Virus record (IMG/VR): IMGVR_UViG_2519899649_000001
Location: 1-64,000 of that record
DNA length: 64,000 nucleotides
Direction: 5' to 3' (one strand)
Source: a virus
Taxonomy: Duplodnaviria; Caudoviricetes
This document shows, in pieces, positions 9,092-63,304 of the stretch (within the stretch, counting starts at the first letter, position 1; each line of letters opens with the position of its first letter). The notes beneath the pieces were generated by a model. The model was given only the letters and a program-made list of their open reading frames with translations, searched no databases and had not been told where the DNA came from. The translations under genes and the position numbers were made by a program.

Positions 9092-9092
9092 C

Positions 9093-13559: not shown

Positions 13560-14321
13560 ATGCCCTGGATTTTCAACGAGGACGGGGCGCTCAAAAGCCG
13601 TCTCCAAGGAATGAAGGTCACCGACGTCAACGCCCCTGACGGCCGTCCGGTGCAGGTGCGGTTCCGGCTCCCCGAAAGCGAGCTGGGCGACCTGACCTTC
13701 CCCGCAGTGATCATCGACCACCGCAGCGTCGAGCGTGACCCCGACCGCGAACACCGCGGCCTGACGATCTTCGGGTACCTGCCCGAGGGCGAGGCGCCCG
13801 CGACCGAGGACGAGCCGTTCGGGCCCAACGAGATCCCCGTCCCCTACAACATCGACTACCAGGTCACCGTGCTGTCGCGTAAAGCCGTGCACCACGTGGA
13901 CCTGATCGGCCAGGTGGCCCGGTTTGAGCGGCTGCCCGCCCGCTTCGGGGCCCTGCCCATCCCCCAAGACGGCACCGTGCGCCGCCTGGACCTGCTCGGC
14001 GGCCCAGAACTATCCACCGACCGCGACGCGGACGGGAAGCGTCTTTTCACCGCCACATATCTAATCCGCGTTTCGACTGAACTTGTCGAATCTGCGCTGC
14101 ACCGTTACCGGCGCGTCATGGAGATCTGCACCCGCATCAGCGAGGTGCGTTCGGGAACCGAACTGGACTCTTACCTGATCACTTACGACGGAGTATCCAC
14201 CGGATGCAGCACGTCCGTACCCGCTCCATCAAGTGATGAGGAATCTCATGGCAGTCTCGTATCTGACGCCGGGTGTCTATGTCGAAGAGAACCTGGACCC
14301 GCTGGTCGAACCACCGGCTAA
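13560..14321 (+). CDS. Tail terminator/completion protein
   Basis: MPWIFNEDGALKSRLQG, PYNIDYQVT, RLPARFGAL, RRLDLL motifs; immediately before sheath; C-terminus overlaps sheath start by ~74 nt. Confidence 0.65.
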   Translation: MPWIFNEDGALKSRLQGMKVTDVNAPDGRPVQVRFRLPESELGDLTFPAVIIDHRSVERDPDREHRGLTIFGYLPEGEAPATEDEPFGPNEIPVPYNIDYQVTVLSRKAVHHVDLIGQVARFERLPARFGALPIPQDGTVRRLDLLGGPELSTDRDADGKRLFTATYLIRVSTELVESALHRYRRVMEICTRISEVRSGTELDSYLITYDGVSTGCSTSVPAPSSDEESHGSLVSDAGCLCRREPGPAGRTTG

Positions 14322-16095
14322 CCCGCTGGGCGACTCGATCGCCGCGTTCGTCGCGCCCTACCCGCAGGGCCCCGACGACCCACGCCGCGTCACCAGCTGG
14401 CAGATGTTCGAGCGCGTCTACGGGGGCTTCTGGGGCAACCAGCTGCTCGGGTCGGCGGTGTTCTCGTTCTTCGCCAACGGCGGCAGCCAGTGCTACATCT
14501 CCCGAGCGGTGCCCGCCGACGCGATTGCCGCCGTGACGACCCTGCTCAACCAGGGCGACCCCGGCGAGGTGAAGCCTCCGGTTCCTGGGCTGCGCGACAA
14601 GACCGACACGCCGTCGGCATGGAACGTGGCGGCACCCGCCGCCCCGGCCCCGACCGTCAAGTCCAAGAAGGCCGCCGCCGCATCCTCCTCGGTCGAGGAG
14701 GATGCGGGCGCTGTCGAGGAGGACATCGACGACGACCCGGCGATCGTCACCGTCACCGGCACGCCCCTGGCCGCCGATGTCACCGCCGACGACGCCAAGG
14801 CCACGGCCGACTGGATTCGTCCGCCGGTCCCGCCGGTCGACACCCTGACCGTCACCGCCCGTTCCAAGGGGGCCATCGGCAACACGTTGTCGATCGAGGT
14901 CATCGCCCGCACCAGCGCCGTGGCCGAGGCCGGCAAGGACGGCCGCGTGGACTTCGTTGTCCGGCAGGGCTGGCAGTCCGACGACTCCCCGGGCACGGTC
15001 CTGGAGACCTTCCCCGACGTCAGCATGAACCCGCTGGACTCGCGGTACCTGCCCAACATCATCAACAGCCCCGTGTCGGGGTCGGCGTACGTGCTGGTCA
15101 CCCACCTGACCGCCACCGAGAAGTTCGAGTCCCCGTGGGACGAGTTGGCCGCCACCACCGATCCGGTGCCGCTGGCGGGCGGAATCGATGGCACCGCCGC
15201 CCCCGACCTGATGGCCGCGGTCGAGGCGCTGACCGGCGTGGCCGAGTCGGTCGGCCTGAACGTCAACATCGTCAACTGCAACGACTCGGCGATCCTCAAC
15301 AGCGCGCTGAAGTGGGCGCAGGACAACTCGGCGTTCTTGGTCGTCGATCCGCCGATGATCGCCGACGGGTCCCAGGACGTGGCCGCGGCCACCAGCGAGT
15401 ACGTCAACTGGATCAACTCCAGCAAACTGGCCGACTCCAGCTACGGAGCGGCCTATGTGCCGTGGGTGCGGATGGCCGACCCCACCTCCTCCATCCCCGG
15501 AGCGTCGCGACTGGTGCCGCCGGGCGGCGCGGTGCTGGGGGTCTACGACAAGACCGACTCGGCGATCGGACCGCACAAGGCCCCGGCCGGTATCCGCACC
15601 GCGCTCAACGGCCTAGTCGACGTGCAGTACCGCTTCCCGCTCCAAAGCACCGACACCCTCAACGACAACCACATCAACTGCATCAGGCCCGTGCCCGGCT
15701 CGGGGATCTGCGTCATGGGCGCCAGGACGCTGAAGGGCGGCTTCCCCGATCGCTACATCAGCGTGCGCCGCACGCTGATCATGCTGCGCCGCCAGCTCAT
15801 CAACCGCACCAGGTGGGCGATCTTCGAGCCCAACGGTCCCGCGCTGTGGGAGCAGCTGTCGGTGATGTTGGACCAGTACCTGATGTCGCTCATGCAGATG
15901 GGCGTTTTGAAGGGCTCCACCGCCGAGACGTCCTACTTCGTCAGGTGCGACGCCGAGAACAACCCACCCGCCGTCGCCAACGCGGGCCGCGTGAATATCG
16001 ACATCGGCCTGGCCCTGGCGTCGCCCGCCGAGTTCATTGTGATTCGGATCGGCCAGTACGAGGGCGGAGCCGACGTCAACGAAGTCGCATCCTGA
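14248..16095 (+). CDS. Tail sheath protein
   Basis: YLTPGVYVEE start, FFANGGSQCY, YGAAYVPW, PHKAPAG, GARTL, RYISVRRTL, WAIFEPN, PAEFIVIRIGQ. Confidence 0.95.
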   Translation: MAVSYLTPGVYVEENLDPLVEPPANPLGDSIAAFVAPYPQGPDDPRRVTSWQMFERVYGGFWGNQLLGSAVFSFFANGGSQCYISRAVPADAIAAVTTLLNQGDPGEVKPPVPGLRDKTDTPSAWNVAAPAAPAPTVKSKKAAAASSSVEEDAGAVEEDIDDDPAIVTVTGTPLAADVTADDAKATADWIRPPVPPVDTLTVTARSKGAIGNTLSIEVIARTSAVAEAGKDGRVDFVVRQGWQSDDSPGTVLETFPDVSMNPLDSRYLPNIINSPVSGSAYVLVTHLTATEKFESPWDELAATTDPVPLAGGIDGTAAPDLMAAVEALTGVAESVGLNVNIVNCNDSAILNSALKWAQDNSAFLVVDPPMIADGSQDVAAATSEYVNWINSSKLADSSYGAAYVPWVRMADPTSSIPGASRLVPPGGAVLGVYDKTDSAIGPHKAPAGIRTALNGLVDVQYRFPLQSTDTLNDNHINCIRPVPGSGICVMGARTLKGGFPDRYISVRRTLIMLRRQLINRTRWAIFEPNGPALWEQLSVMLDQYLMSLMQMGVLKGSTAETSYFVRCDAENNPPAVANAGRVNIDIGLALASPAEFIVIRIGQYEGGADVNEVAS

Positions 16096-16126: not shown

Positions 16127-16675
16127 ATGCCTATCACTCAGAAGGCGTCCATCGCCCATATCGAAACCGATCCTCTTCGCAATTTCCGGTTCCGTGTGAA
16201 GATTCACAAGGCCGGTTTTCCGGAGATGGGTTTCATGGCCGTGAGTGGATTGAACATCACGACCGAAGTGATTCCTTACCGTGAAGGTGGGATGAACACG
16301 ACCACGCAGAAGATGCCTGGTCAGGCCGATTTTGCACCGATCACGCTGTCCAAGGGATTGGCGGTCGGCGACTCGGCGATGATGGAGTGGACGCGCGAGC
16401 TTTTCACTGTTTTGCAGGGCACCGGACCCGGTAAGCCCGGTGCGGAATTCCGTGCTCGCGTGCAGATCGACATCATCGATCACCCGGTCACCGTCAAGCA
16501 GGCTCCGATCAAGGCCAGCTTCATGGTCTACAACGCTTGGCCCACGGCCGTGGCATTTTCGGATCTCGACGCCGGGGCAAATGCGGTTCTGGTGCAGCAG
16601 ATGACCTTGGCGCACGAAGGTTTCGAGTTCCGAATCGCAAACAAGGTCGGCACCGCCGAGCCCAAGAAGTGGTAA
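16127..16675 (+). CDS. Tail tube protein (T4 gp19-like)
   Basis: DPLRNFRFRV, YREGG, ITLSKG, YNAWPT..FSDLDA motifs; follows sheath. Confidence 0.92.
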   Translation: MPITQKASIAHIETDPLRNFRFRVKIHKAGFPEMGFMAVSGLNITTEVIPYREGGMNTTTQKMPGQADFAPITLSKGLAVGDSAMMEWTRELFTVLQGTGPGKPGAEFRARVQIDIIDHPVTVKQAPIKASFMVYNAWPTAVAFSDLDAGANAVLVQQMTLAHEGFEFRIANKVGTAEPKKW

Positions 16676-16727
16676 TTCCGTAAGCGGTTTGCGCACCAGC
16701 ACTGAACAAATACACGGGGGAGAAACA

Positions 16728-17615
16728 ATGGAGACCGAAACTGTCACCGCCGACCCGTTCGGGGACGGATGGGTCAACCCGATGAACAACCCGGGGGCCG
16801 CCAACGCCGCCATCGGCCAGGCCCTGGCCACCGCCACCGCAGGCAGCCCGATGCCTGACATCCCAGCCCACCACACCTCCGGGCACGTGGACCTGGTCGG
16901 CGGCTTCTTCGACGGCGAGGGCCAGCTGGTCCGCCACGCGACCGTGCGGGAGCTGACCGGCGAGCACGAGGAACGCATCGCCAAGGCCCGCCAGTCCCGC
17001 AACAGCGCGCGGATGCTGGCCACGCTGCTGGAATGCGGGGTCGAGCGCCTGGGCGACCAGGAGGCCACCCCCAAGCTGCTGCGCAAGCTGCTGATCGGAG
17101 ACCGCGACCAGCTCATCCTGGAGATCCGCCGCGCCACCTACGGCAACGAGCTGGAGTTCCCGGCCGCCGAATGCCCGCACTGCAACGGCAAGGTCGACCT
17201 GGAACTCACCCTGGACGACATCCCCACCCGCCACCTGGACACGCCCGAGGACCGCAACTTCACCGTGCCGCTGCGGCGAGGCCGCGTCGCCAACGTGCGC
17301 CTGCCGATCGGCGAGGACCAGGAAGCGCTGCTGGAGCTGTCGGGAAACAACGCCTCGCTGGCCGAGCAGAACACGCTGCTGCTGTCACGAACCGTCAAGT
17401 CCTTCACCGAGCCCGACGGCAGCGAGACCCAGGCCGCGGGCATCCCGGCGATGGTCCGCGAGCGCCTGTCGATGCCCGACCGCGCCGCCATCCTCAAGGC
17501 CCTCAACGACCGCCGTCCCGGCCCGCGCTACGACGAGCTGTCCTTCACGCACGATGCGTGCGGGGAGGAGGTCGAGCTGCCCGTCACGGTCAGCGACCTG
17601 TTTCTCGGTCTGTGA
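16728..17615 (+). CDS. Tail assembly chaperone (T4 gp26-like)
   Basis: VRELTGEHEE, LLIGDRDQLILEIRRATYG, CPHC, LSMPDRAAIL...PGP; position between tube and tape measure. Confidence 0.8.
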   Translation: METETVTADPFGDGWVNPMNNPGAANAAIGQALATATAGSPMPDIPAHHTSGHVDLVGGFFDGEGQLVRHATVRELTGEHEERIAKARQSRNSARMLATLLECGVERLGDQEATPKLLRKLLIGDRDQLILEIRRATYGNELEFPAAECPHCNGKVDLELTLDDIPTRHLDTPEDRNFTVPLRRGRVANVRLPIGEDQEALLELSGNNASLAEQNTLLLSRTVKSFTEPDGSETQAAGIPAMVRERLSMPDRAAILKALNDRRPGPRYDELSFTHDACGEEVELPVTVSDLFLGL

Positions 17616-17751
17616 CTACCGCGCCGCCTACGCCGACTACGAGCTGATCGCCGCGGCCATGCCCTGGCCGTTGGCCGACATCAAGAACCTGACCGTCCGC
17701 GAGCGCCACCACTGGAAGGCGTTCGTGATCGCCCGCACCGAAAGGGAGTGA
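17602..17751 (+). CDS. Tail chaperone C-terminal extension, probably reached by +1 frameshift
   Basis: YADYELIAAAMPWPLADIKNLTVRERHHW in the +1 frame overlapping the chaperone stop; CTG TTT CTC slip site at 17598-17606; no SD-led start. Confidence 0.6.
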   Translation, partial: FSVCDYRAAYADYELIAAAMPWPLADIKNLTVRERHHWKAFVIARTERE

Positions 17752-17754
17752 CCC

Positions 17755-20658
17755 GTGGCCGACACGCCGACGCCGTCTTCGGGCACCTCTGGGGAGGACC
17801 AGCTGCAACGCGCCGTCGATGCGCTGGAACGCACCATCTCCCGGTTCGCCCGGTTCCTGGAGAGCAAGGGCGCAGCCAGCCCTGGCGCATCGGGGCGCAT
17901 GGGTAACGGCGGCTGGAACTCGATGTCCAACTGGATGGGCGGACGCCCCAACGGCGGGCAGGTCCGCCAGGGGCCCGGCGGGGCGATGCAGGTCGCCTCC
18001 ATGCTGGCCCGCTCGGGCGCCGGTGGAGTCGGCGGTGCGGGCGGAGGCGGTACCCCTAACGGGGGCGGCTCGGCGTTCACCGGCGGTGGCCAGGGCGGCT
18101 CGATGGGTGCCGGGACCGGCGGCGGGATCGGTGGGGGCGGTGGGTTCTTGTCGATGCTCGCCGACCAGGCCGACGACCAGGGCGGCGCGATGGGCTTGGC
18201 TGGCAAGGCGATGGGCTCCTGGCTGGACTTCGGCAAACGGCAGATGCCCGACCAGCTCACCATGGACGCCGTCGCCTCCTCGGTGTCGATGGGCACCTCC
18301 ATGGACCCCCGCGAGGCCCGCAAGCAGTTCCTCGGGCAGCAGTTCGGGCGTAACGGGGAGGGCATCCCGGGCATCGCCTTCAACGTCCGCGACTGGGCCA
18401 ACGCCGCTCAGATGCGCCGCACCATGGGCACCCTGCCGATCCCCGGTGCCACCACCGCCCGCCAGCGCGCGGGCAACGTCGACTTCACCCAGATCGGCCT
18501 GACCAACCCCACGCTCGGGGCAGCCGGGGCCGCACGCGTCCAGCAGCAGCTCGCAGGCCCGTCCTCGACGTTCACCTTCATGAACCTGGGCGGCCGGTTG
18601 TCGGGCGGCGGCAGCAACGTGTCGATGTCGCAGATGAGCAACCAGCTGCTCAACCGCGCCGGGCTGAACCTGAACAAGATGTCCGCCAAGGACATCGAGA
18701 CGTTCTTCGCCCAGGGCGGCACCGGCCGCATCCAGGCCATCGAGTCGGGATGGTCCGAAGAGACCGTCTCAGCGATGCGCACCAACCTCCAGGGCCAGAA
18801 GAAGTTCATGGCCGACGGCGGCAACGCCGGCGACTGGGACCGGCTGGCGCAGAAGGCCGCCGACGGCGACGAAGAGGCCAAGAAGAAGATCGGCGACTAC
18901 GTCGGCGCCCAGGGCGTGCAGAAGCTCAAGGACCTCAAGGGCACCAAGATGTCGCGCTCGGCCGACATCAACGAGGACTACATGGACTCGGTCGAGGCCG
19001 CAGCGGGCGCGGCGACCGAGCTGGAAAAGGCCCTCACCAACATCATCAACCTCCCGGGGATCAAGCAGCTGGTCGCCGCATCCGGCGGCGCGAGCGTGCT
19101 GGACTCGGTCGGCAAGGGCGGCCTGATCGCCGGGGGCCTGAAGATCGCCTCCGGTGTCGGGTCGGCGATGAGTTCGGTGCAGCAGGGCAACTTGCCGGGG
19201 GCGTGGAACGCAGTCAAGGGCCTGCTGGGCGGTGCGGGCCCCGAGCCGATGAGCAAGCAGACCGACAAGGCCCCCGGCGGCAGCGGGTGCGACGGAGCCG
19301 ACTCCGGAGCCGTCGCAACGATGATCAAAGCGGGCAAGTCCAAGCTGGGCACGCCCTACCTGCTGGGCGCCCGCGAAGGCGACACCAGCAAGTTCGACTG
19401 CTCCAGCTTCGTGCAGTGGATGTACTCCCTCGCCGGGAAAAAGATCACACGCACCACCCAGACCCAGTGGCGCAACGACGGACGCCGCGTCAAGCCCGGC
19501 GAGAAGCTCCAACCAGGCGACCTGCTGTACCGGCGCACAGGATTTGGCGCACCACCAGGACACGTCGGCATGTACATCGGCGGCGGACAGGTCATCGACA
19601 CCGGCTCCAACCAGACCGGCGGCGTGAAGATCACCAAATACTCCAAGGCCCGCTGGGACATGGGCGCCAAGCGCATCCTGGGCTGCTCGCTGTCGGACAA
19701 CGCCGCCGCCAACGGCCAGGGCGGCGGAGCCCAGGGCGGGAGCGGACCCGACCAGGCCGGCGGTCAGTCCGTCGGGCAGGCCATGGGCCACATGGGCGAC
19801 AAGTACGGCTCGGTCGAAGAAGTCGAAGCCATCGCCGGGGCACTGTCGGGCGCGGACGTCGGCGTGGGGGAGGACTCGGCCACCAAGGAACGCCAGACCG
19901 AGTCCAACGGCGCATCCGACCAGAACAACTCCGGCTCGTCGTCCTACACCGGGAAGATCGACTGGTCCAAGGCCAAGTCCGGCGAGGTCGCCTCCTACTG
20001 GGACACCGGCTCCGACTCCTCCTACGGCGACACCGGCGCACCGGCGTGCGGCAAGGGGATGAAGAAGAACCACATCGCCCACCGCACGTTGAAGTGCGGC
20101 ACGAAGGTCGCCTTCCGGCACAAGGGCAAGGTCCAGATCGGTGAGGTCGGCGACCGCGGCCCCGGCATCCCCGACCGCGAATACGACATCTCCACGTACA
20201 TGATGGCGCAGTTCGGCCAGGGCTTCTGGGACCCCAAGCGCCCCAAGGCATCCGGCCAGGGCCTGGTGCGCGCCGAGTACGTGGTGCTGGGCGGCGGCGA
20301 CAAGGGAAGCCAGCCCCCGGGCCTGGACGCCAACGGCCGCCCCAAGCGCAACGCCTACGCCACCGGCGCGTGGGAGACCGAGGACGAGACCGCCGACCTA
20401 CACAAAGGCGAGATGGTCCTGCCCAAGGAAGTCGCCGAGCAGGTCCGCGAAGTGCTGGCCAAAGCGTCGGTGTTCAAGACCCGCCCTGCCCAGACCGGCA
20501 GTGGGGGCGGCAAGCTCGCGCTGCACTTCGGGCAGGGCTCGGTCGTGTTCCGCGTGAGCGGCACCGTCACCCCCGAGTCCGCCCAGGCCGCCGCCCGCGC
20601 GTTCGCCCAGCAGCTGGCCCGCGAACGTGTGTACGAGCTGATGGGCGCCGGGGGGTAA
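17755..20658 (+). CDS. Tape-measure-like protein 1 with NlpC/P60 and RlpA-like DPBB domains
   Basis: Gly-rich/helical N-half; LGTPYLLG...FDCSSFV...PGDLLY...GHVGMYIG (NlpC/P60); VASYW...IAHRTLKCGT...GDRGP...YDIS (RlpA); LHKGEMVLP C-terminal motif. Confidence 0.8.
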   Translation: MADTPTPSSGTSGEDQLQRAVDALERTISRFARFLESKGAASPGASGRMGNGGWNSMSNWMGGRPNGGQVRQGPGGAMQVASMLARSGAGGVGGAGGGGTPNGGGSAFTGGGQGGSMGAGTGGGIGGGGGFLSMLADQADDQGGAMGLAGKAMGSWLDFGKRQMPDQLTMDAVASSVSMGTSMDPREARKQFLGQQFGRNGEGIPGIAFNVRDWANAAQMRRTMGTLPIPGATTARQRAGNVDFTQIGLTNPTLGAAGAARVQQQLAGPSSTFTFMNLGGRLSGGGSNVSMSQMSNQLLNRAGLNLNKMSAKDIETFFAQGGTGRIQAIESGWSEETVSAMRTNLQGQKKFMADGGNAGDWDRLAQKAADGDEEAKKKIGDYVGAQGVQKLKDLKGTKMSRSADINEDYMDSVEAAAGAATELEKALTNIINLPGIKQLVAASGGASVLDSVGKGGLIAGGLKIASGVGSAMSSVQQGNLPGAWNAVKGLLGGAGPEPMSKQTDKAPGGSGCDGADSGAVATMIKAGKSKLGTPYLLGAREGDTSKFDCSSFVQWMYSLAGKKITRTTQTQWRNDGRRVKPGEKLQPGDLLYRRTGFGAPPGHVGMYIGGGQVIDTGSNQTGGVKITKYSKARWDMGAKRILGCSLSDNAAANGQGGGAQGGSGPDQAGGQSVGQAMGHMGDKYGSVEEVEAIAGALSGADVGVGEDSATKERQTESNGASDQNNSGSSSYTGKIDWSKAKSGEVASYWDTGSDSSYGDTGAPACGKGMKKNHIAHRTLKCGTKVAFRHKGKVQIGEVGDRGPGIPDREYDISTYMMAQFGQGFWDPKRPKASGQGLVRAEYVVLGGGDKGSQPPGLDANGRPKRNAYATGAWETEDETADLHKGEMVLPKEVAEQVREVLAKASVFKTRPAQTGSGGGKLALHFGQGSVVFRVSGTVTPESAQAAARAFAQQLARERVYELMGAGG

Positions 20659-20661
20659 GCC

Positions 20662-23394
20662 ATGCCACCACGCATCAAGCGCATCATCGGCGCCAACGAC
20701 CTGGAGCGCACCGCCGAACGGCTGATCTGCGCGGCGGCGACCTGGGACAAGGCCATCTCGCGGTGGGAGCAGCTCCAGTCCGCGGCCAACCGGCTGACCG
20801 GTGGCGGCATCGGCTACACCGCCACCCGTTCGCCCGGCTGGAACGCCGGGTCCAACTACTCGGCCAATCGCGCCAACGGCGGTGGAGCACGGTTCTCCTC
20901 CACCAGCTATCGCACGCCTCAACGTCCCGCCCCTCGTCGGGGACCAGGGGCGGCAGGTAGCGGAGCCCGAGGCACCAGCTCCGGCGGTGGCGGTGGCGGT
21001 GGCGGAGGAGCGTTCGGCGGCGTGGCCCCCTCACCCAGCGGCGGCGGCGGCGGTGGTGGTGGCGGGTTCCTGTCGCAGATGAGCGGCAGCCTGCCCCTGG
21101 GCGCGGGCAAAGCCTTGAGCGCGATGATCGGCTACGGCAACCAGCACATGGGCGAGCAGCTGAGCATCGACGCCTATGTGTCCAGCGCCTCGATGGGGAT
21201 GAACGGCAACGCCGCCGATGGCCGCGACCAGCTGCGCCGCCAGATCTTCGGCCGCAACGGACAGGCGATCCCGTCGGTCGGGTTCAACGTCAACGACACT
21301 TTGCGCGGCGAGATGATCCGCCGTGACATCGCTGGCGGCCCCGTCGGGTACGGGCCTGGCTCGACCGCACGCTCGCGCGCCGCCTACAGCGACTACATGG
21401 GCATCTCCTACGCCATGCCCGAACGGTCCGCCGAACAGGTCGCCAAGTTCCAAGCCCAGTTCGCCTCCTCCGCCGGGACGTTCACCGGACTGAACCTGGG
21501 CCTGACGCCCTCCGGCGACGGAACCAGCTTCGGACCCGGTGACATCCACGCCGGAATCATGAACCGCATCGGCCAAAAGACGCTCTCGGACAAGGACACC
21601 GAGACGCTCTACTCCCAGGGCGGCACCGGCTACATCCAGGCGATCCAGTCAGGGTTCGACCCCGACATGCTCAAGGAGTACGGCCTGGCCATGAACAAGG
21701 CCCGCCGCAAGGGCGTCTCCGACAGCGACTTCAAAGAGACGCTGAAGAAGGCGGGCGAGGATGACGCCGAGGCCCAGGAGAAGGCCGCCGAGTGGGGCAT
21801 GGACAAGGACCGGCTGCGCGCGGTCAAGCGGCTCAACTCCACGCGCCAGTCCCGCCAGGCCGACATCAACGAGGACTTCACCAGCGCGGTGAAGGGCGCC
21901 GCCGAGGTGGCCGCCGAGTTCGAGAAGGCATTGAGCGGCATCATCAACCTGCCGATCATCAAGCAGATCGTGGGGGCCTCGGGCGGCGGTGCGGTGCTGG
22001 ACTCGGTCGGCAAGAGCGGCTGGGCCGCCGGGATCGGCAAACTGCTGATGGGCGGGTTCGGGCCCTCGGTCGGCGGCCTGATGGGCGGCCTGGACCTGAC
22101 CCCCACCATGCGCAGCGCCAAGGCCGACATCCAGTCCCGCATCAAGGGCTTCCCGTCGGTGGGGTGCCTTCGCCCCGGCGACCCCCAGGACCACGGCAAG
22201 GGCATGGCGTGTGACTTCATGACCTCCCGGATCGGCAAGCGCTCCACCGGGAGCGAAGAAGCCCTGGGCGACCGGACCGCCGCCTACGCCATCGCCAACG
22301 CCTCGCGACTGGGCATCAAGTACGTGATCTGGAAACAGCGGATCTTCAACATCAGCCGCGGCGACAAGAAGTGGCGCCGCATGGGCGACCGCGGCAGCAT
22401 CACCCAGAACCACTACGACCACGTTCATATCTCGGTGGTGGCCGGCCGCCCGTCCGACCCCAACGCCCCCGTCGTGATGCCCAACGGCGCAGGTGGTGGC
22501 GTGGCCCTGGGCGACGGTGGCAAGGAGAAGAAGCAGGACCCCTCCAACCCCGGCGACAGCCACGGTACCTCGACCGGCTCTGATGCGATGGGCAACAAGT
22601 ACGGGTCGGTGGAGGAAGTCGAGTCGTTGGCCGCGGCCCTGGCCGGAGACGGCGGAACAGCGGGCTTTGCCAGCAGCGACAGCAACGGCTCGGGGACTGG
22701 CCGCGAGAACGGCAGCGGCGCGGCGTCCGGGCAGCAGAGCAGCGGAGGCACAGGAGGCGACGCCCATGCTCAATGCAAGCTCGACGACAAGAAGTGCCTG
22801 AAGGAACTGGCCAAGGGGCTGGCTTCCAAACACGGCTGGGGCTCAGGCGCCCAATGGGAAGCTCTGGACTGGCTGATCCAGCACGAGTCGTCCTGGAACC
22901 CCAAAGCACAGAACCCGTCCTCGGGCGCTTACGGCCTGCCCCAAGCGCTGCCCGGCAACAAGATGGCCAGCGTCGGCAAGGACTGGAAGACCAACCCGTC
23001 CACACAGCTCAAGTGGATGCTGCGGTACATCAAGGGCCGTTACAAGGACCCGCTCGGCGCGCAGAAGTTCTGGCGGCAGCACAACTGGTACCGCGATGGT
23101 GCCTACGACGTGCGCGCCGACGAGACCGCCCAGGTCCATAAGGGCGAGTCGATCCTGCCGGTGCGACCCGCTGAGAAGGTCCGCGAGGCCATCGCCCGCC
23201 AGTCGCTGTTCTCCCACGGCGGAGACGGTGACCACGCCGACGAAGTGGCGATCCGGTTCGCCGACAACTTCGTGGACACCGACCTGCCGGGCGGCGACGG
23301 CACCACCGGCGACCAGCTGCGCAACACCAGCATCGAGCTGCGGCGGCTGCTGGACCGAGAACACCTGTACGAAACGATCGCCGGGGGAGTTTGA
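20662..23394 (+). CDS. Tape-measure-like protein 2 with M15-like peptidase and SLT lytic transglycosylase domains
   Basis: Paralogue of the previous gene; DHGKGMACDF...YVIWKQRI...NHYDHVHISV (Zn peptidase H-x6-D...HxH); QWEALDWLIQHESSWNPKAQNPSSGAYGLPQAL (SLT); VHKGESILP. Confidence 0.8.
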   Translation: MPPRIKRIIGANDLERTAERLICAAATWDKAISRWEQLQSAANRLTGGGIGYTATRSPGWNAGSNYSANRANGGGARFSSTSYRTPQRPAPRRGPGAAGSGARGTSSGGGGGGGGGAFGGVAPSPSGGGGGGGGGFLSQMSGSLPLGAGKALSAMIGYGNQHMGEQLSIDAYVSSASMGMNGNAADGRDQLRRQIFGRNGQAIPSVGFNVNDTLRGEMIRRDIAGGPVGYGPGSTARSRAAYSDYMGISYAMPERSAEQVAKFQAQFASSAGTFTGLNLGLTPSGDGTSFGPGDIHAGIMNRIGQKTLSDKDTETLYSQGGTGYIQAIQSGFDPDMLKEYGLAMNKARRKGVSDSDFKETLKKAGEDDAEAQEKAAEWGMDKDRLRAVKRLNSTRQSRQADINEDFTSAVKGAAEVAAEFEKALSGIINLPIIKQIVGASGGGAVLDSVGKSGWAAGIGKLLMGGFGPSVGGLMGGLDLTPTMRSAKADIQSRIKGFPSVGCLRPGDPQDHGKGMACDFMTSRIGKRSTGSEEALGDRTAAYAIANASRLGIKYVIWKQRIFNISRGDKKWRRMGDRGSITQNHYDHVHISVVAGRPSDPNAPVVMPNGAGGGVALGDGGKEKKQDPSNPGDSHGTSTGSDAMGNKYGSVEEVESLAAALAGDGGTAGFASSDSNGSGTGRENGSGAASGQQSSGGTGGDAHAQCKLDDKKCLKELAKGLASKHGWGSGAQWEALDWLIQHESSWNPKAQNPSSGAYGLPQALPGNKMASVGKDWKTNPSTQLKWMLRYIKGRYKDPLGAQKFWRQHNWYRDGAYDVRADETAQVHKGESILPVRPAEKVREAIARQSLFSHGGDGDHADEVAIRFADNFVDTDLPGGDGTTGDQLRNTSIELRRLLDREHLYETIAGGV

Positions 23395-23395
23395 C

Positions 23396-24337
23396 ATGCC
23401 GCCCAAGAAGTCCTGCGAGGAGCGGTTCCCCGGGAACCCTCGCGCCATCGCCACCTGCAAGAAGATCGAGAAGATGAAGGGGCAAGGCGAGGCGGAGAAG
23501 GCCAAGAAGAAGCCTGACGACAAGAAGGACGACAAGTCCAAGCCGCAGGTTCTGCGCCGCCGCTACACCAACCCCGACTTCGAGCTGTGGAAGCGCAAGC
23601 GGTCTTTCGCCGGGGACAAGGCCAACGACCGCGGGGAGATCCTGCGTCGGGGACGGCTGTGGCGCCGCGAGTGGGACGGGAAGGTCCCCAAAGCGGACGA
23701 AGCGCAGATGTTCCAGTTCCTCTACAACCCCAGCGAGATCACGGTCTCCTACAACTCCCAGATCAAGCCCGAGGCCCTCAAAGAGGTTCTGACCGCCCAG
23801 TACAAGAAGCCAGAAAGCGGCACGCCGCCGAACCTGGTGGGGATGGTCCCGGTTCCTTCCGAACCCAACACCGGCAACATCTCGCTGCAACTGCTGTGCG
23901 ACCGCACCTACGAGACCTGGCTGAAGCCCGGCAAAGGCAAAGGCACCCTGGCCCAGGAGATGGGCGTCCTGGTCGACGTGCAGGTCTTCCACGAGATGCT
24001 CGGCATGAGCAACTTCGACATGAACGCCGAGTTCTTCAACTTCGCCGGTTCACCGCAGTACCAGGGACCCTACATTCGCAACACCCTGACCGTTCCTCCG
24101 TCGCCCACCACCGTGATGCTGGAACTGGGGCCACTGCGCTACTACGGCTACATCCTGAATTTTTCGGTCAGCTACACGCACTTCACTGCTTACTTGGTGC
24201 CCAACCGGTGCGTGATCAGTACCAACATCACGCTGTTGCCGCCCCCGAACTACCGCCTTCAGGAACAGCAGCAAAGCACCGACGGTGGCAGCGGCGATGA
24301 CGCGGGCGGCCGTGCCGGGCGAGCAGGAGGCAACTGA
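23396..24337 (+). CDS. Tail tube initiator/baseplate-tube junction protein
   Basis: FQFLYNPSEITVSY and YYGYILNFSVSYTHF..LVPNRC motifs; follows tape measure. Confidence 0.65.
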   Translation: MPPKKSCEERFPGNPRAIATCKKIEKMKGQGEAEKAKKKPDDKKDDKSKPQVLRRRYTNPDFELWKRKRSFAGDKANDRGEILRRGRLWRREWDGKVPKADEAQMFQFLYNPSEITVSYNSQIKPEALKEVLTAQYKKPESGTPPNLVGMVPVPSEPNTGNISLQLLCDRTYETWLKPGKGKGTLAQEMGVLVDVQVFHEMLGMSNFDMNAEFFNFAGSPQYQGPYIRNTLTVPPSPTTVMLELGPLRYYGYILNFSVSYTHFTAYLVPNRCVISTNITLLPPPNYRLQEQQQSTDGGSGDDAGGRAGRAGGN

Positions 24338-24609
24338 TGGCTATTCCGGCGTCTTCGCGCTACTACGGCGCCAATGTCGTGCCCGTCGAGGTCAACGGAC
24401 AGGTCCGCAACACCATGTACCCCGGCGAGCAGGGCCCGTTCGTCTTCTCCTACACCAAGGTGCTCTTGGGGCCGCGCCGTCTCGACCAGCTGGCGTACGA
24501 GGTCTACGGCGACGACCAGCAGTGGTGGCGCATCGCCGACGCCAACCCCGAGATCGTCGACTTCTTCGACCTGCCGCCCGACACCGAGTTGCGGGTGCCC
24601 CGTGACTAG
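24337..24609 (+). CDS. LysM-like baseplate protein (tail X/gp53-like)
   Basis: RLDQLAYEVYGDDQQWWRIADANP...LRVP. Confidence 0.85.
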   Translation: MAIPASSRYYGANVVPVEVNGQVRNTMYPGEQGPFVFSYTKVLLGPRRLDQLAYEVYGDDQQWWRIADANPEIVDFFDLPPDTELRVPRD

Positions 24610-25807
24610 CACTCCCGACAGCCAATGGTCGCTTCCGGTCACCCAGCTGCTGCGCCCGCCCGACGGGGTGACCAACCCCGGCGCCATCCACAGCTTGGAG
24701 ATTCGGCAGGAATTCGGCAGGCACACCCTGGCTTTCGTCCAGCTGACCGGCCAGCTAGCGGGCAACCGCAACCGGCAGACCTGGCCTGAAGGCTCCCCGG
24801 TGGCGCTGGGCTACGGCAGCACCGGCGACACCGACCGCTGGTACGGATACGTGCATCACGCCGAGTTCCTGCGCGACCGGTCGGCGGGCACCCCACAGGC
24901 CCAGACGTTCTCCTACGTCCTGATCGGCACCTCCTGGCCGCTGAACTGTGGGCACGTGCGGTCCTGGCGCAGCGTCACCGACTCCTACATCACCCGCAGG
25001 ATCGCCTTGGGCGCGGGCCTGTCGCCAGTCACCGACACCACCCCGATCCGGCACCGGTACCTGGCCCAATCCGCCGACCAGAGCGATTGGCAGTTCCTGC
25101 TCGACCGCGCCGCCGAGAACGGCTACCGGCTGCACATCGACGGCCCCGACGCGACCCTGCTGCACCCGCGGACCTATCTGGCTGGCGGGCTCAGCAATGA
25201 CATCCCCACCTACTGGTTCGGCCACCAGGTCGCCGACGTCACCCGCTTTGAGATGATCGCCGGCACCCAGACCCCCGTGGGCGGCGTGAAGGCCACCCGC
25301 ACCGTGTACGGCCTGGACCGCACCACCGGCCGCACCGTGGCTGCCACCTCCGGCACGGGCACCCTCAAACAGATCAAGAACCCACGCCCGGCCGCGTCCT
25401 TCGGAGAGGCCCGTGCGCTGGCCCGAGCCGAATCGGCCGCCAACGCCGACTGGCTGGTGGCCGAAGCCGACCTGCGAGGGTCACCGCGGCTGCGTCCCGG
25501 GCGGCTGATCCGGCTGGTCGGCCAAGCGCTGCCCCGGCACGCGGAGGGAACCTGGCTGATCACCGCCGCCCGGCACCGCCTGGGGACCCCCCAACTCGGT
25601 GACCCGCTCACTGGCTTCTACAACACCCAGGTCCGCCTGGTCCGCAACCGCAACACCGGCTACACCACCGCCGACGTCCACAACGCCTCCACCGGCGGCG
25701 GCATGCACTTGGTGCCTGACCCCGACACCGGCGTCCAACGCTGGATCGCCAACATCCAGCGACCCTCCATCCACCATCCGCACACCGCCCACCAGGACCA
25801 CCCATGA
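24602..25807 (+). CDS. Baseplate hub protein (gp27/late control D-like)
   Basis: QSDWQFLLDRAAENGY, GSPRLRPG...GTWLITAARH motifs. Confidence 0.75.
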   Translation: MTSTPDSQWSLPVTQLLRPPDGVTNPGAIHSLEIRQEFGRHTLAFVQLTGQLAGNRNRQTWPEGSPVALGYGSTGDTDRWYGYVHHAEFLRDRSAGTPQAQTFSYVLIGTSWPLNCGHVRSWRSVTDSYITRRIALGAGLSPVTDTTPIRHRYLAQSADQSDWQFLLDRAAENGYRLHIDGPDATLLHPRTYLAGGLSNDIPTYWFGHQVADVTRFEMIAGTQTPVGGVKATRTVYGLDRTTGRTVAATSGTGTLKQIKNPRPAASFGEARALARAESAANADWLVAEADLRGSPRLRPGRLIRLVGQALPRHAEGTWLITAARHRLGTPQLGDPLTGFYNTQVRLVRNRNTGYTTADVHNASTGGGMHLVPDPDTGVQRWIANIQRPSIHHPHTAHQDHP

Positions 25808-26052
25808 CCCAGCACTGCGGCATCTACCCCGCCACGGTCACCGCCGTACACAACACACGCATCCGCGCCCGCGTCCCGCACGTGCTGGGCAGCGCAGTCT
25901 GCCAGTGGGCCTCACCGATGATCATCCCTGTGGCGATGCCCGCCCCCGGCGACCAAGTGCTGGTGATGTTCCTGGGGGGAGACATCCGCCAACCGGTCTG
26001 GATCGGCGGCAGCGCCGCAACACCACCACCCGTCCCGCCGCCGGGGCCGTGA
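25804..26052 (+). CDS. Baseplate spike (gp5/gpV OB-fold), short
   Basis: YPATV...RIRARVPHVLG...WA...PAPGDQVLVMFLGGDIRQPVWIG. Confidence 0.8.
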   Translation: MTQHCGIYPATVTAVHNTRIRARVPHVLGSAVCQWASPMIIPVAMPAPGDQVLVMFLGGDIRQPVWIGGSAATPPPVPPPGP

Positions 26053-26062
26053 GGAGACCACC

Positions 26063-26473
26063 ATGCCCAAAGAGATCGCCGTTCCGTTCCGGCTGGACAG
26101 CACTGGCCGCGTCGCCGTCCAGGAAGACCCCGACCGCCAGATCAACGCCCACGCCATGGGCTTGGCCGCCACCACCAACGGTGAGCGCGTCATGATGACG
26201 CCCTACGGCTGCTCGCTGATCGAGCTGGTGTTTGAAAACAACACCCAAGAAGTCAGCGGAGAAATCGTCGACCGTGTCGCCACGGGCCTGGGGAAATGGG
26301 AGCCGGGCATCAAACTCCGCGGAGTGCGCCCGACCTACAACGACCAGGGCCTAGCCAAGGTCGAACTCGACATCGCCACCGTCGACAGCCCCGGCACCCA
26401 CGCCGGCGACTCCTACGTCAACACGGCCACCGTTCACGTCGGCGGCCGAGTCACCGAGGTTATACGCGGCTGA
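26063..26473 (+). CDS. Baseplate wedge protein (gp25/gpW-like)
   Basis: PFRLDSTG, TTNGERVMMTPYGC, LGKWEP motifs. Confidence 0.85.
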   Translation: MPKEIAVPFRLDSTGRVAVQEDPDRQINAHAMGLAATTNGERVMMTPYGCSLIELVFENNTQEVSGEIVDRVATGLGKWEPGIKLRGVRPTYNDQGLAKVELDIATVDSPGTHAGDSYVNTATVHVGGRVTEVIRG

Positions 26474-26581
26474 TATTCGGTATCCGGCACACGTCCGGGC
26501 GACAATAAAACCAACCGACTTGCTTTCGCGCCAGCGGAGAACTGACACGGGATAGGCCGAAGCCCTGCTTCGAGGTGTCCC

Positions 26582-28051
26582 GTGGCTGACCCGCTGATTG
26601 ATTACACCGCGCGTGACTACCAGATGGCCAAAACTGCCCTTCTGGAGTACGCGCGGCAGGTTTTTCCAGAATGGACCTCCAGGTCTGAAGGCGACTTCGG
26701 CGTCTTGATGACGGAACTGTTCTCCTACATCACCGACCTGCTCAGCTATAACTGCGACCGCGCGGCGATGGAAGCATTCCTGCCGACGGCCACCCAACGC
26801 ATGAGCGTGCTGGCCATCGCCGACATGCTGGGATATCTGCCGCACAACGGCGCACCCGCACAAGGCGCAGTATGGGTCAAGACCGAAGACGACGCCCCCG
26901 CCGCGGTGATCCTCAAGGCAGGAACCCAGTTCGCCGCCGAACTCGACATCGAGTCCGACGAAGTGATCATCTTCGAGTCCGACGCCGACGTGACGATCCC
27001 CGCCGACCACAGCCCGACCGAAATCAAGGTCACCCAAGGCGAGACGGTCCGCGACCAACTGGTGGGCACATCCACCGGCGAGGCCGGGCAACGCTTCCGG
27101 CTCCCACGCACCGGCGTTCTCCACGACACCGTGAAGATCGAGGTCGTCGAAGCCTACGGACCCTCCCCGTGGGCCCGCGTGGACCACATCGTGGACGCCG
27201 ACCCCAGCGACAAAGCGTTCACCGTCCGCACCGACTCCAACGGTGTCACCTGGGTGCGGTTCGGCGACGGCATCACCGGCGCCATTCCCAGCAGAGACCA
27301 GCAGATCCGCGCCACGTTCCGGGTCGCCGACGGGATCAAGGGCAACCTGGACTCCGGCAAGATCGTCATGATCGCGTCGGAGAACATCTACGGCGTCGAA
27401 CTGGCGCCCGACGGCGGCGGCCAGCCGCGCTCCACCGAAATGCGCGGCGGAGCCGACCCCGAATCCACCGAGTCGATCCGCGGCACCGCCCCGCTCCAGT
27501 ACCGCACCCAGGACCGGTGCGTGTCGATCGACGATTACAAGCAGGAAGCCTTGAGCGTGCCGGGCGTGGTCAAGGCCACCGCCATCGCCGAGCACTTCTC
27601 GTCGGTGAACGTGTTCGTCGCCGGGCCGGGCGGCAGCTCTCCCAACGCCCGGATGATCGAGCGGATCTATGAGCACCTGCGCGGACGCATCCAGGCGGGC
27701 ATCACTGTGTCGGTGGCCGGGCCCAAACTGGTCCCGATCGACGTAGGGGTCACCCTGTGGCTGGAACCGCGCACCGACGTGGCGCACGCGAAGTTCCGCG
27801 CCAAGGAAGCCGTCAGCCGACTCCTGAGCCCCGACCGCACTGAATTCGGCATGTGCATCAGCGTCTCGGCGATCGTCGCCGAGCTGATGCGGCTGGAAGG
27901 CGTCTACTCGGCGCGCGTCACCAAGCTCATGCGCAAGGGCGGCACCGACAAGAACCCCGAGCTGCGCGACCTGGGCCTGAGGCCCATCGAGCTGCCCACC
28001 GCCGGGACCATCAACGTCGCCGTCGGCGACCGCACCACGATCTGTAAGTGA
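26582..28051 (+). CDS. Baseplate J-like wedge protein
   Basis: IDYTARDY, WTSRSEGDFG, FGDGITGAIP, GGADPES, RCVSIDDY. Confidence 0.9.
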   Translation: MADPLIDYTARDYQMAKTALLEYARQVFPEWTSRSEGDFGVLMTELFSYITDLLSYNCDRAAMEAFLPTATQRMSVLAIADMLGYLPHNGAPAQGAVWVKTEDDAPAAVILKAGTQFAAELDIESDEVIIFESDADVTIPADHSPTEIKVTQGETVRDQLVGTSTGEAGQRFRLPRTGVLHDTVKIEVVEAYGPSPWARVDHIVDADPSDKAFTVRTDSNGVTWVRFGDGITGAIPSRDQQIRATFRVADGIKGNLDSGKIVMIASENIYGVELAPDGGGQPRSTEMRGGADPESTESIRGTAPLQYRTQDRCVSIDDYKQEALSVPGVVKATAIAEHFSSVNVFVAGPGGSSPNARMIERIYEHLRGRIQAGITVSVAGPKLVPIDVGVTLWLEPRTDVAHAKFRAKEAVSRLLSPDRTEFGMCISVSAIVAELMRLEGVYSARVTKLMRKGGTDKNPELRDLGLRPIELPTAGTINVAVGDRTTICK

Positions 28052-55306: not shown

Positions 55307-55338
55307 CGAGTCCTTGTCACCGATTGAGGGAGCCCGAA

Positions 55339-61074: not shown

Positions 61075-61087
61075 ATCTTTCAGGATC

Positions 61088-63278: not shown

Positions 63279-63304
63279 GTATCTCCCCCGAGAATGCAGA
63301 AGAC

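What the first reader, a model, noticed from the sequence alone, without database searches (positions are those of the whole stretch)
17755..23394. Two tandem paralogous tape-measure-like genes with four different cell-wall hydrolase cassettes in equivalent slots
Seen in sequence: the two proteins share a scaffold in the same order. Examples: FGRNGEGIPGIAFNV vs FGRNGQAIPSVGFNV; SRSADINEDYMDSV...ELEKALTNIINLPGIKQLVAASGGASVLDSVGKGG vs SRQADINEDFTSAV...EFEKALSGIINLPIIKQIVGASGGGAVLDSVGKSG; MGDKYGSVEEVEAIAGAL vs MGNKYGSVEEVESLAAAL; LHKGEMVLP vs VHKGESILP. Slot 1 holds NlpC/P60 in copy 1 and an M15-like Zn peptidase in copy 2. Slot 2 holds an RlpA-like DPBB in copy 1 and an SLT transglycosylase in copy 2. 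Each copy therefore pairs one peptidase with one glycan-strand lyase, from non-homologous families. Established: tape measures often carry PG hydrolases, but a phage usually has one TMP gene. Inference: a heteromeric tape, or two alternative tail cores, giving a swappable wall-drilling toolkit that could widen host range or reach different cell states.
Basis: partly seen in the sequence, partly recalled or inferred. Interest (0 to 1): 0.78.

Follow-up and report, generated by a model that had tools for sequence, protein, structure and literature searches.

The report
Duplicated wall-digesting phage tape-measure genes
A prophage in an Actinomadura genome carries two old, intact, adjacent copies of the large tail gene that its relatives have once, and each copy kept one ancestral cell-wall-cutting enzyme and swapped the other, giving four different enzymes; similar doubled genes are already known in other phages, so this is a clear new example rather than a new principle.

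Summary
Observation confirmed. Genes 17755-20658 (967 aa) and 20662-23394 (910 aa) are true paralogs. They share a 340-aa helical scaffold (39% identity, E 1e-57), a linker motif and a C-terminal module.

Cassettes:
- Copy 1: NlpC/P60 plus an RlpA-like DPBB (fold-level support only).
- Copy 2: a PF26571 domain (PDB 9flh, E 3e-23; "M15-like" only at motif level) plus an SLT-type transglycosylase.

Setting: the tape-measure position (sheath, tube, hub-assembly gene, PAIR, baseplate) of a BRock-type myovirus prophage in Actinomadura.

Four annotated relatives examined, and several ~110-kb contigs, have one gene, with NlpC/P60 + SLT. So this is a lineage-specific duplication (sister taxa, SH-aLRT 100) with one cassette replaced in each copy. 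Synonymous sites are saturated and both frames are intact, so both copies have been kept for a long time.

Both new cassettes are closest to Actinomadura chromosomal genes. The DPBB matches none of 50,697 phage records.

Tandem pairs recur independently in this family: one IMG/VR contig carries M23 versus M15_4 + lysozyme. Such pairs are in print for Staphylococcus jumbo phages, and this scan has noted them in other lineages.

Co-assembly of both proteins in one tail is plausible but untested. Novelty: new variant of a known kind.

The parts
14233..16095 (+). Tail sheath gene (context)
   Evidence: Pfam Phage_sheath_1 and Phage_sheath_1C. 42-44% identical to the sheath proteins of BRock-type Streptomyces phages.
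16127..16675 (+). Tail tube gene (context)
   Evidence: phrog_4542 tail tube, E 2.8e-33.
16689..17615 (+). T4_baseplate / baseplate-hub-like gene just upstream of the pair. The first-stage reader took it for the tail assembly chaperone.
   Evidence: PF12322, E 4.9e-8; phrog_150, E 1.3e-9. The same gene precedes the single-copy gene in BRock and LuckySocke and the pair in L022.
17554..17751 (+). Small ORF (65 aa) overlapping the end of the previous gene in the +1 frame and ending 3 nt before copy 1
Evidence: BRock, LuckySocke and GiJojo have a 51-65-aa ORF in the same place.
17755..20658 (+). Copy 1 (967 aa): N-terminal Gly-rich part, helical scaffold, NlpC/P60, linker, DPBB, C-terminal module
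   Evidence: RBS AAGGGAG lies upstream of GTG 17755.
18145..19164 (+). Copy 1 scaffold (residues 131-470)
   Evidence: AlphaFold pLDDT 82.9, pTM 0.75, 16 helices. A profile of this region finds 72 family representatives.
19348..19659 (+). Copy 1 slot 1: NlpC/P60 cysteine peptidase (residues 532-635)
   Evidence: Pfam PF00877, E 1.4e-18. Cys549 is nearly invariant (>=90%) and His603 invariant in the family alignment.
19792..19845 (+). Copy 1 inter-slot linker motif MGDKYGSVEEVEAIAGAL
   Evidence: YGSxEEV is part of the family consensus.
19975..20292 (+). Copy 1 slot 2: RlpA-like double-psi beta-barrel (about residues 741-846)
   Evidence: Pfam DPBB_1, E 1.3e-4, below cut-off. Foldseek top hits are all DPBB proteins. 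The DRGP motif is invariant.
20344..20655 (+). Copy 1 C-terminal module (residues 864-966), including LHKGEMVLP
   Evidence: Conserved across the family.
20662..23394 (+). Copy 2 (910 aa): N-terminal Gly-rich part, helical scaffold, PF26571 domain, linker, SLT, C-terminal module
   Evidence: The ATG lies 3 nt after copy 1's TAA, with a G-rich RBS inside the end of copy 1.
21067..22062 (+). Copy 2 scaffold (residues 136-467)
22096..22437 (+). Copy 2 slot 1: PF26571 domain (residues 479-592) with H-x2-G-x-A-x-D and HYDHVH motifs
   Evidence: PDB 9flh, E 3e-23. All 91 homologues found carry PF26571.
22588..22641 (+). Copy 2 inter-slot linker motif MGNKYGSVEEVESLAAAL
22831..23091 (+). Copy 2 slot 2: SLT / aggregation-promoting-factor C-terminal-type transglycosylase (residues 724-810)
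   Evidence: Pfam SLT, E 2e-5, above cut-off. NCBIfam NF052397, E 9e-34. 43% identical to the same region of LuckySocke gp92.
23077..23388 (+). Copy 2 C-terminal module (residues 806-909), including VHKGESILP
23396..24337 (+). Next tail gene (313 aa), starting 1 nt after copy 2's stop
   Evidence: tblastn homologue of LuckySocke gp93 'minor tail protein'.
24374..28051 (+). Baseplate hub, wedge and J genes (context)
   Evidence: Phage_GPD (weak), phrog_52, phrog_43, Baseplate_J.

Best explanation
The two genes are old tandem paralogs of the single, hydrolase-carrying tape-measure-position gene of BRock-type contractile-tailed actinophages. They sit in an Actinomadura prophage.

The ancestor had a helical scaffold, NlpC/P60 in slot 1, a YGSxEEV linker, SLT in slot 2, and a C-terminal hub-end module. 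After duplication in this lineage:
- Copy 1 kept NlpC/P60 and replaced SLT with an RlpA-like DPBB.
- Copy 2 kept SLT and replaced NlpC/P60 with a PF26571 metal-site domain.
- Both new cassettes are closest to chromosomal wall-enzyme genes of Actinomadura, so they were probably captured from the host lineage.

Inferred mechanism:
- Both proteins are made from the same late transcript by coupled translation.
- Both retain the family's N-terminal, scaffold and C-terminal modules, with closely matched lengths up to the end of the scaffold (470 vs 467 residues).
- So both are loaded into the tail lumen, most likely mixed within one tail.
- On sheath contraction they are expelled, and their four enzymes cut peptide stems and glycan strands locally, opening the thick actinomycete wall for DNA entry.

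Shown: paralogy, cassette identities (DPBB at fold level only), position, one copy in relatives, the age of the duplication and intactness of both copies, and recurrence of pairs.

Inferred: presence in virions, co-assembly, enzyme activities, and any benefit for host range.
For: - Paralogy.
- Synteny with sheath, tube, hub and baseplate genes.
- One homologous gene with NlpC/P60 + SLT in BRock and LuckySocke. GiJojo and pSt2308 also have a single large gene at the same position (domains not scanned).
- The same architecture is dominant among 72 family representatives.
- The two copies are sister taxa, SH-aLRT 100.
- Synonymous saturation (fourfold third-position identity 0.52 vs 0.46 expected), no conversion tracts, both ORFs intact.
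- Catalytic motifs are present in all four cassettes: and direct reading.
- The host genome encodes PF26571 homologues at 56-59% identity and DPBB homologues at 35-45%. Phage tape-measure copies of PF26571 are at most about 41% identical. No phage record matches the DPBB.
- 3-nt and 1-nt gene junctions with ribosome-binding sites.
- The scaffold is all-helical. Its best viral fold matches are M23- or transglycosylase-bearing proteins of about 900-1,000 aa, then many annotated tape measures.
- An independent tandem pair with other cassettes in IMG/VR contig L022.
- LuckySocke has a separate endolysin.
Against: - No curated tape-measure model (Pfam, NCBIfam) matches. PHROG tape-measure hits cover only the enzyme cassettes.
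- The scaffold model is a set of 16 mostly short helices with pTM 0.75, not an obvious long coiled coil. It has no solved structural relative.
- There is no proteomic, structural or expression evidence.
- The DPBB fold also includes non-enzymatic wall-looseners and a protease inhibitor, so its activity is uncertain.
- The activity of PF26571 could not be found in the literature.
- Host origin of the cassettes rests on identity levels, not on a rooted tree.
Confidence: 0.6

Rival explanations
1. Division of labour. Only one paralog is the length-setting tape measure. The other has become a separate virion-associated tail lysin or ejection protein that no longer determines tail length.
For: - In MarsHill-like Staphylococcus jumbo phages, one of two tape-measure-like genes was annotated as a tail lysin.
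- In the probable P0006/P0008 pair, one member has only NlpC/P60 and the other only SLT, and their C-terminal halves do not align. So paralogs can drift apart in role.
Against: - Both window copies keep every family-conserved module: the N-terminus, the scaffold (340 vs 332 aa), the linker, and the C-terminal HKGE module.
- They have almost the same length up to the scaffold end (470 vs 467 residues). That is expected if both must fit the same tube.
Confidence: 0.2
2. Alternative tapes. Each tail contains only one of the two proteins, so a lysate is a mix of two virion types with different enzyme pairs (bet-hedging).
For: Each copy on its own pairs a peptidase-type cassette with a glycan-type cassette, so each is a complete toolkit. 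The same holds for copy B of L022, which has M15_4 + lysozyme.
Against: - Tight translational coupling (3-nt gap) gives no obvious switch, so both proteins would be present in every infected cell.
- The scaffolds are only 39% identical, so homo-oligomer sorting is possible. Nothing tested here shows it.
Confidence: 0.12
3. One copy is a redundant or decaying duplicate in a defective prophage, with no role of its own.
For: - The element is a prophage, and no close relative was found for comparison.
- The family was not found in the other 103 species of the genus searched.
Against: - Synonymous sites are saturated, yet both reading frames of about 2.8 kb are intact, with host-like GC3 and all catalytic motifs.
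- Independent pairs exist in other lineages.
- The rest of the module is intact and syntenic with lytic phages.
Confidence: 0.05

Closest known systems
Single-copy gene of BRock-type Streptomyces myophages: BRock gp134 (annotated 'endolysin'), LuckySocke gp92, GiJojo gp84, and the pSt2308 homologue
   Same: - Same position after sheath, tube, a T4_baseplate-like gene and a small ORF.
- Same scaffold (22-24% identity), same YGSxEEV linker region, and same C-terminal HKGEM module.
- NlpC/P60 in slot 1 (as in copy 1) and SLT in slot 2 (as in copy 2; 43% identity).
   Different: - One gene instead of two.
- No DPBB or PF26571 cassette.
- Lytic phages of 112-115 kb infecting Streptomyces, not an Actinomadura prophage.
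Tandem pair on IMG/VR contig IMGVR_UViG_3300030007_000072 (locus L022)
   Same: - Same family and same synteny.
- Two adjacent paralogs sharing the scaffold (59% identity) and C-terminus (49%), with unrelated middles.
- One copy pairs a peptidase (M15_4) with a glycosidase (Phage_lysozyme2).
   Different: - A different clade of the family tree, so an independent duplication.
- Different cassettes: M23 versus M15_4 + lysozyme.
- 58% GC, host unknown.
Mycobacteriophage, Gordonia and Streptomyces siphophage tape measures with embedded wall-enzyme motifs
   Same: They carry PF26571-type and SLT-type cassettes inside annotated tape-measure genes. 695 phage records hold a relative of the copy 2 slot-1 cassette (phrog_4197).
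   Different: - Non-contractile tails, one tape-measure gene, and an unrelated helical body.
- Cassette identity of at most about 41%, lower than to Actinomadura chromosomal genes.
Paired tape-measure-like genes of Staphylococcus jumbo phages (MarsHill, Madawaska, DC4)
   Same: Two adjacent tape-measure-like genes of near-equal length carrying different peptidoglycan hydrolase domains. Already noted in print (bioRxiv 10.1101/2020.12.14.422802; PMC10638138).
   Different: - Unrelated proteins of about 2,000 aa in AR9/phiKZ-like jumbo phages of Firmicutes.
- No evidence there for a single-copy ancestor with reciprocal cassette replacement.
PDB 9flh 'LysM domain-containing protein' (PF26571 family)
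   Same: The copy 2 slot-1 cassette aligns over 114 residues (E 3e-23) with all His and Asp motif residues conserved. This includes the His that is mutated to Ala in 9fln.
   Different: 9flh is a small stand-alone bacterial protein. Its activity could not be found in the searchable literature.

Membership tests
Phage tail tape measure protein (functional class) | Gene lies between the tail tube (and chaperone) genes and the baseplate hub genes | tested here: met
   Order is sheath 14233, tube 16127, T4_baseplate-like 16689, the PAIR, then gpD-like hub 24374, gp25-like 26063 and Baseplate_J 26582. Related phages show the same order.
Phage tail tape measure protein (functional class) | Long, predominantly alpha-helical body | tested here: met
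   The 340-aa scaffold is all-helical (16 helices, pLDDT 82.9). It is built of many short helices and is much shorter than the whole protein.
Phage tail tape measure protein (functional class) | Match to a curated tape-measure sequence family | tested here: not met
   No Pfam or NCBIfam tape-measure model matches. PHROG tape-measure hits (phrog_13339, 4197, 991, 5448) cover only the enzyme cassettes. BFVD fold matches to annotated tape measures are weak (E 1e-3 to 3e-2, TM 0.2-0.3).
Phage tail tape measure protein (functional class) | Protein length sets tail length; the protein occupies the tube lumen | not testable with these tools
   Needs virion proteomics, cryo-EM or deletion mutants.
Phage tail tape measure protein (functional class) | Preceded by a chaperone gene with a programmed frameshift | not tested
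A 65-aa ORF overlaps the end of the upstream gene in the +1 frame. Pfam calls the upstream gene T4_baseplate, not a chaperone.
NlpC/P60 (PF00877), copy 1 slot 1 | Pfam score above the gathering threshold, and the catalytic Cys and His | tested here: met
   67.2 bits against a cut-off of 23. Cys549 is nearly invariant and His603 invariant in the family alignment.
RlpA-like DPBB lytic transglycosylase (PF03330), copy 1 slot 2 | Pfam score above the gathering threshold | tested here: not met
   22.5 bits for the isolated domain against a cut-off of 28.8; 18.7 bits in the whole protein.
RlpA-like DPBB lytic transglycosylase (PF03330), copy 1 slot 2 | Double-psi beta-barrel fold | tested here: met
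   The model core has pLDDT 70-81. Foldseek PDB hits are led by PA4485 (4avr; E 1e-3, TMt 0.72), then kiwellins, expansins, loosenin, cerato-platanins, designed DPBBs and MltA. All E-values are at or above 1e-3.
RlpA-like DPBB lytic transglycosylase (PF03330), copy 1 slot 2 | Glycan-cleaving activity (catalytic Asp) | not testable with these tools
   The Asp of the DRGP motif is invariant among the six homologues. The fold also includes non-hydrolytic expansins and a papain inhibitor.
SLT / GH23-type transglycosylase (PF01464; NCBIfam NF052397), copy 2 slot 2 | Scores above the curated cut-offs, and the catalytic Glu-Ser motif | tested here: met
   Pfam 24.6 bits against 21.3. NF052397 115.8 bits against 40. 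'QHESSW' and 'YGLPQA' are seen in the translation.
PF26571 (family of PDB 9flh), copy 2 slot 1 | Significant sequence match with conserved His and Asp motifs | tested here: met
   phmmer E 3e-23 to 9flh. H-x2-G-x-A-x-D and HYDHVH are conserved. All 91 homologues found carry PF26571. The local Pfam copy gave no hit.
   No Pfam M15 model hit at E <= 0.1. hhalign of the PF26571 profile against the M15_4 domain of L022 aligned only 14 columns around H-x2-G-x-A-x-D (probability 0.7%).

The most novel reading that the evidence does not exclude
The two paralogs co-assemble as a hetero-oligomeric tape measure inside one tail tube. A single virion would then deliver four mechanistically different wall-cutting enzymes. 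This design arose independently at least twice or three times in this family by duplication plus capture of host wall-enzyme genes. A heteromeric tape measure has not been shown for any phage, to my knowledge.
Probability: 0.4. Interest if true: 0.75.

Novelty: new variant of a known kind. Interest (0 to 1): 0.5.

Why it matters
Tape measures with built-in wall enzymes are how many phages of thick-walled bacteria open the cell wall.

This locus shows unusually clearly how that toolkit evolves. The single-copy ancestor is known from relatives. The duplication is old and maintained. Each copy kept one ancestral enzyme and replaced the other, apparently with host-lineage genes.

That this recurred independently in the family argues for selection. 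If both proteins share one tail, it would be the first heteromeric tape measure, which bears on how tail length is set and how ejection proteins are ordered.

The slots with conserved flanks are also a natural template for studying enzyme swaps in virion-associated lysins of actinomycete phages. The DPBB cassette would be a new type of phage tail cargo.

Tried and rejected
- Megablast of the region against 50,697 phage records: no match.
- tblastn of the scaffold alone against phages: no match. It is too divergent; the relatives were found through the sheath instead.
- Word-indexed homologue search with the scaffold: only the query itself.
- The search for related loci with the two-copy scaffold alignment: nothing in genome contigs or viral contigs. 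The 14-member alignment was too divergent for pattern design.
- Scaffold profile in 60 relatives and in all 103 other species of the genus: no match.
The contigs of most family members could therefore not be read.
- P0006 in IMG/VR: nothing.
- Scaffold fold against PDB by Foldseek and by VIA-align wide: no credible match, best Z 5.5 over 89 residues.
- PDB sequence search with the DPBB: nothing significant.
- Literature searches for 9flh and its sister entries, PF26571, and 'two tape measure genes': no relevant paper, except the Staphylococcus jumbo-phage remarks.
- Rejected: the pair as endolysins (BRock's annotation). LuckySocke has a separate endolysin, and the genes sit inside the tail module.
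- Rejected: recent duplication or gene conversion. Synonymous sites are saturated.
- Rejected: a conjugative-element wall hydrolase. The context is terminase, portal, capsid, sheath and baseplate genes.
Full report
**The observation**

The window has two adjacent + strand ORFs at exactly the stated coordinates. Copy 1 runs from GTG 17755 to TAA 20658 (967 aa, P0001). Copy 2 runs from ATG 20662 to TGA 23394 (910 aa, P0002). Their third-position GC of 0.92 and 0.88 marks them as real genes in this 65-70% GC DNA.

BLASTP of one against the other gives three co-linear blocks:
- 39% identity over 342 residues (131-467 vs 136-464, E 1e-57).
- The linker MG(D/N)KYGSVEEVE.
- 32% identity over the last 106 residues (E 1e-10).

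The Gly-rich N-terminal stretches do not contribute, so the similarity is not low complexity.

**The four cassettes**

- Copy 1 slot 1 is NlpC/P60 (Pfam 67 bits, residues 532-635).
- Copy 2 slot 2 is an SLT-type transglycosylase. Pfam gives 24.6 bits against a cut-off of 21.3. NCBIfam's aggregation-promoting-factor C-terminal domain gives 115.8 bits. The Glu-Ser motif is visible in the translation.
- Copy 1 slot 2 scores below the Pfam DPBB_1 threshold (22.5 vs 28.8 bits).
  - An AlphaFold model (core pLDDT 70-81) finds only double-psi beta-barrel proteins at the top of the PDB list: PA4485, kiwellins, expansins, loosenin, cerato-platanins and MltA. All E-values are at or above 1e-3.
  - The DRGP motif is invariant among its few homologues.
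  - The fold is therefore supported. The lytic-transglycosylase activity is inferred, because this fold also includes non-hydrolytic proteins.
- Copy 2 slot 1 is not a demonstrable M15 peptidase.
  - No M15 model hits it.
  - A profile comparison with a true Peptidase_M15_4 domain aligns only the H-x2-G-x-A-x-D motif.
  - It belongs to family PF26571. It matches PDB 9flh at E 3e-23 with all His and Asp positions conserved, including the His mutated in entry 9fln. All 91 homologues found carry PF26571.
  - I could not find a paper on this structure.

**The setting**

The window lies in contig C1 (759 kb) of a 6.7-Mb genome. Its RpoB fragment is 96-97% identical to Actinomadura species.

The window is a myovirus-type prophage:
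- Terminase, portal and capsid.
- Sheath (14233-16095) and tube (16127-16675).
- A T4_baseplate / baseplate-hub-like gene (16689-17615) and a 65-aa ORF.
- The pair.
- A 313-aa tail gene (23396-24337).
- A gpD-like hub, a gp25-like wedge, Baseplate_J and fibres.
- Then replication genes.

The junctions are tight. There is an AAGGGAG ribosome-binding site before copy 1. A 3-nt gap with a G-rich site precedes copy 2. A 1-nt gap precedes the next gene.

The nearest characterised phages are the lytic Streptomyces myophages BRock, LuckySocke, Alone3, GiJojo and pSt2308, with 42-44% sheath identity. tblastn of LuckySocke ORFs maps co-linearly onto window positions about 60 to 60,000.

**One gene in the relatives**

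In BRock, LuckySocke, GiJojo and pSt2308, the same position holds a single gene of 1,025-1,057 aa. It is annotated 'endolysin' or 'hypothetical protein'.

LuckySocke gp92 aligns with both window copies in the scaffold (22-24% identity) and the C-terminal HKGEM module. It has NlpC/P60 in slot 1 (40% identical to copy 1) and SLT in slot 2 (43% identical to copy 2). LuckySocke also has a separate endolysin gene, so the tail gene is not the lysis enzyme.

An exhaustive HMMER search of 1.84 billion representatives with the scaffold profile found only 72 proteins, nearly all 850-1,330 aa. Most have NlpC/P60 followed by SLT. The variants:
- Slot 1: CHAP or M23.
- Slot 2: Phage_lysozyme2 or nothing.

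None of the other representatives matched the DPBB or the PF26571 cassette. The ancestral state is thus scaffold, NlpC/P60, linker, SLT, C-terminus. The two slots behave as exchangeable positions between conserved flanks.

**History of the pair**

- On a maximum-likelihood tree of the scaffold (54 rows), the two window copies are sister taxa with SH-aLRT 100. The duplication is therefore specific to this lineage.
- It is old. Third positions at fourfold sites of identical residues are 52% identical against 46% expected from composition. There are no long high-identity DNA tracts.
- Two intact 2.8-kb frames with all catalytic motifs after synonymous saturation argue that both have been under purifying selection.
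- Each copy kept one ancestral cassette and replaced the other.
- The host genome encodes two chromosomal PF26571 proteins at 56-59% identity to the copy 2 cassette. It also encodes secreted DPBB proteins at 45% and 35% identity to the copy 1 cassette. The best database hits for both are other Actinomadura species.
- Relatives of the PF26571 cassette sit in 695 phage records, nearly all annotated tape measures of Mycobacterium, Gordonia and Streptomyces phages, but at no more than about 41% identity.
- The DPBB cassette matches nothing in 50,697 phage records.

Capture from the host lineage is the simplest reading. It rests on identity levels, not on a rooted tree.

**Are they tape measures?**

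For:
- The position matches P2 gpT or T4 gp29: after sheath and tube, before the hub.
- No other candidate exists in the module, here or in the relatives.
- The scaffold is all-helical (pLDDT 82.9).
- The best viral fold matches are M23- or transglycosylase-bearing proteins of about 900-1,000 aa, followed by many annotated tape measures.

Against:
- No curated tape-measure family matches.
- PHROG tape-measure hits cover only the cassettes.
- The scaffold model is a bundle of mostly short helices with no solved relative.

I therefore call them tape-measure-position proteins and give about 0.7 to the tape-measure function itself.

**How unusual is the doubling?**

It is not standard in this clade. 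The four annotated relatives examined have one gene. Several contigs of 105-116 kb carry a single family member.

It does recur, though:
- IMG/VR contig L022 (58% GC) has the same order of sheath, tube and T4_baseplate genes, followed by two adjacent paralogs of 1,166 and 925 aa. These share the scaffold (59% identity) and the C-terminus (49%). One carries M23; the other carries Peptidase_M15_4 plus Phage_lysozyme2.
- P0006 (NlpC/P60 only) and P0008 (SLT only) are sister taxa and share a Logan contig length of 33,096 bp.
- P0019 and P0029 show the same pattern without contig evidence.

Each pair is a sister pair in a different part of the tree, so the duplications look independent.

Outside this family:
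- Two adjacent tape-measure-like genes with different hydrolase domains are in print for Staphylococcus jumbo phages (bioRxiv 10.1101/2020.12.14.422802; PMC10638138).
- This scan's earlier notes list further twin and triple cases in phage-G-like, Mu-like and T4-like phages. I did not test those.

**Mechanism and rivals**

Most likely (0.6), both proteins are made together and loaded into the tail lumen. Both retain every conserved module and closely matched lengths up to the scaffold end (470 vs 467 residues). On contraction they deliver two peptide-cutting and two glycan-cutting enzymes to the wall.

Whether they mix in one tail (my preferred reading, about 0.4 overall), sort into separate tails, or have split roles (tape versus lysin) cannot be decided from sequence. 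A decaying duplicate is unlikely, given the age of the pair and the intact frames.

**Verdict**

This is a real and well-resolved case of duplication plus reciprocal cassette replacement in a hydrolase-carrying tape-measure-position gene. It has evidence for host-derived cassettes, and a DPBB cargo not seen in the phage collection searched. The general phenomenon is already known, so the case is a new variant of a known kind and of moderate interest.

Noticed in passing
Outside the window: G000:C1:687935-688186, 705451-705774, 703145-703675, 712230-712478: LuckySocke-like ORFs and two tyrosine integrase genes lie 23-48 kb to the right of the window. The prophage probably extends to about 100-113 kb. 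It would be a temperate relative of the lytic BRock-type phages, and it lacks their large tRNA array within the window.
   Followed up: partly
window 55111-55944 (+): A third NlpC/P60 protein (277 aa; Pfam 79 bits) sits in the prophage's late region and is homologous to LuckySocke gp181 'peptidase'. tblastn found no homologue of LuckySocke's annotated endolysin gp185, so this protein may be the lysis enzyme.
   Followed up: partly
window 17554-17751 (+), overlapping the end of 16689-17615: A 65-aa ORF in the +1 frame overlaps the last 62 nt of the T4_baseplate-like gene and ends 3 nt before copy 1. BRock, LuckySocke and GiJojo annotate a separate 51-65-aa ORF in this place.
   Followed up: no
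L022:2418-3002 and L022:4050-4625: The IMG/VR contig that carries the second tandem pair also has two T4 gp19-type tube paralogs flanking the T4_baseplate-like gene.
   Followed up: no
window 61734-63467 (-): A 577-aa minus-strand gene with a DUF3560 domain lies at the right end of the LuckySocke-homologous region. The neighbouring minus-strand ORFs (60580-61474, 63365-63769) have no Pfam match.
   Followed up: no
window 9015-10937 (+): A 640-aa ORF in the head/neck region has no Pfam match, and LuckySocke has no tblastn counterpart there.
   Followed up: no
PDB 8kea_A (fold-search hit, not in the window): The second-best fold match of the DPBB cassette is an 878-aa chain of the cyanophage A-1(L) 'baseplate-initiators' complex. 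DPBB domains may therefore occur in the tail-lumen or hub proteins of other myophages (E 1.8e-3, rmsd 11 A, weak).
   Followed up: no
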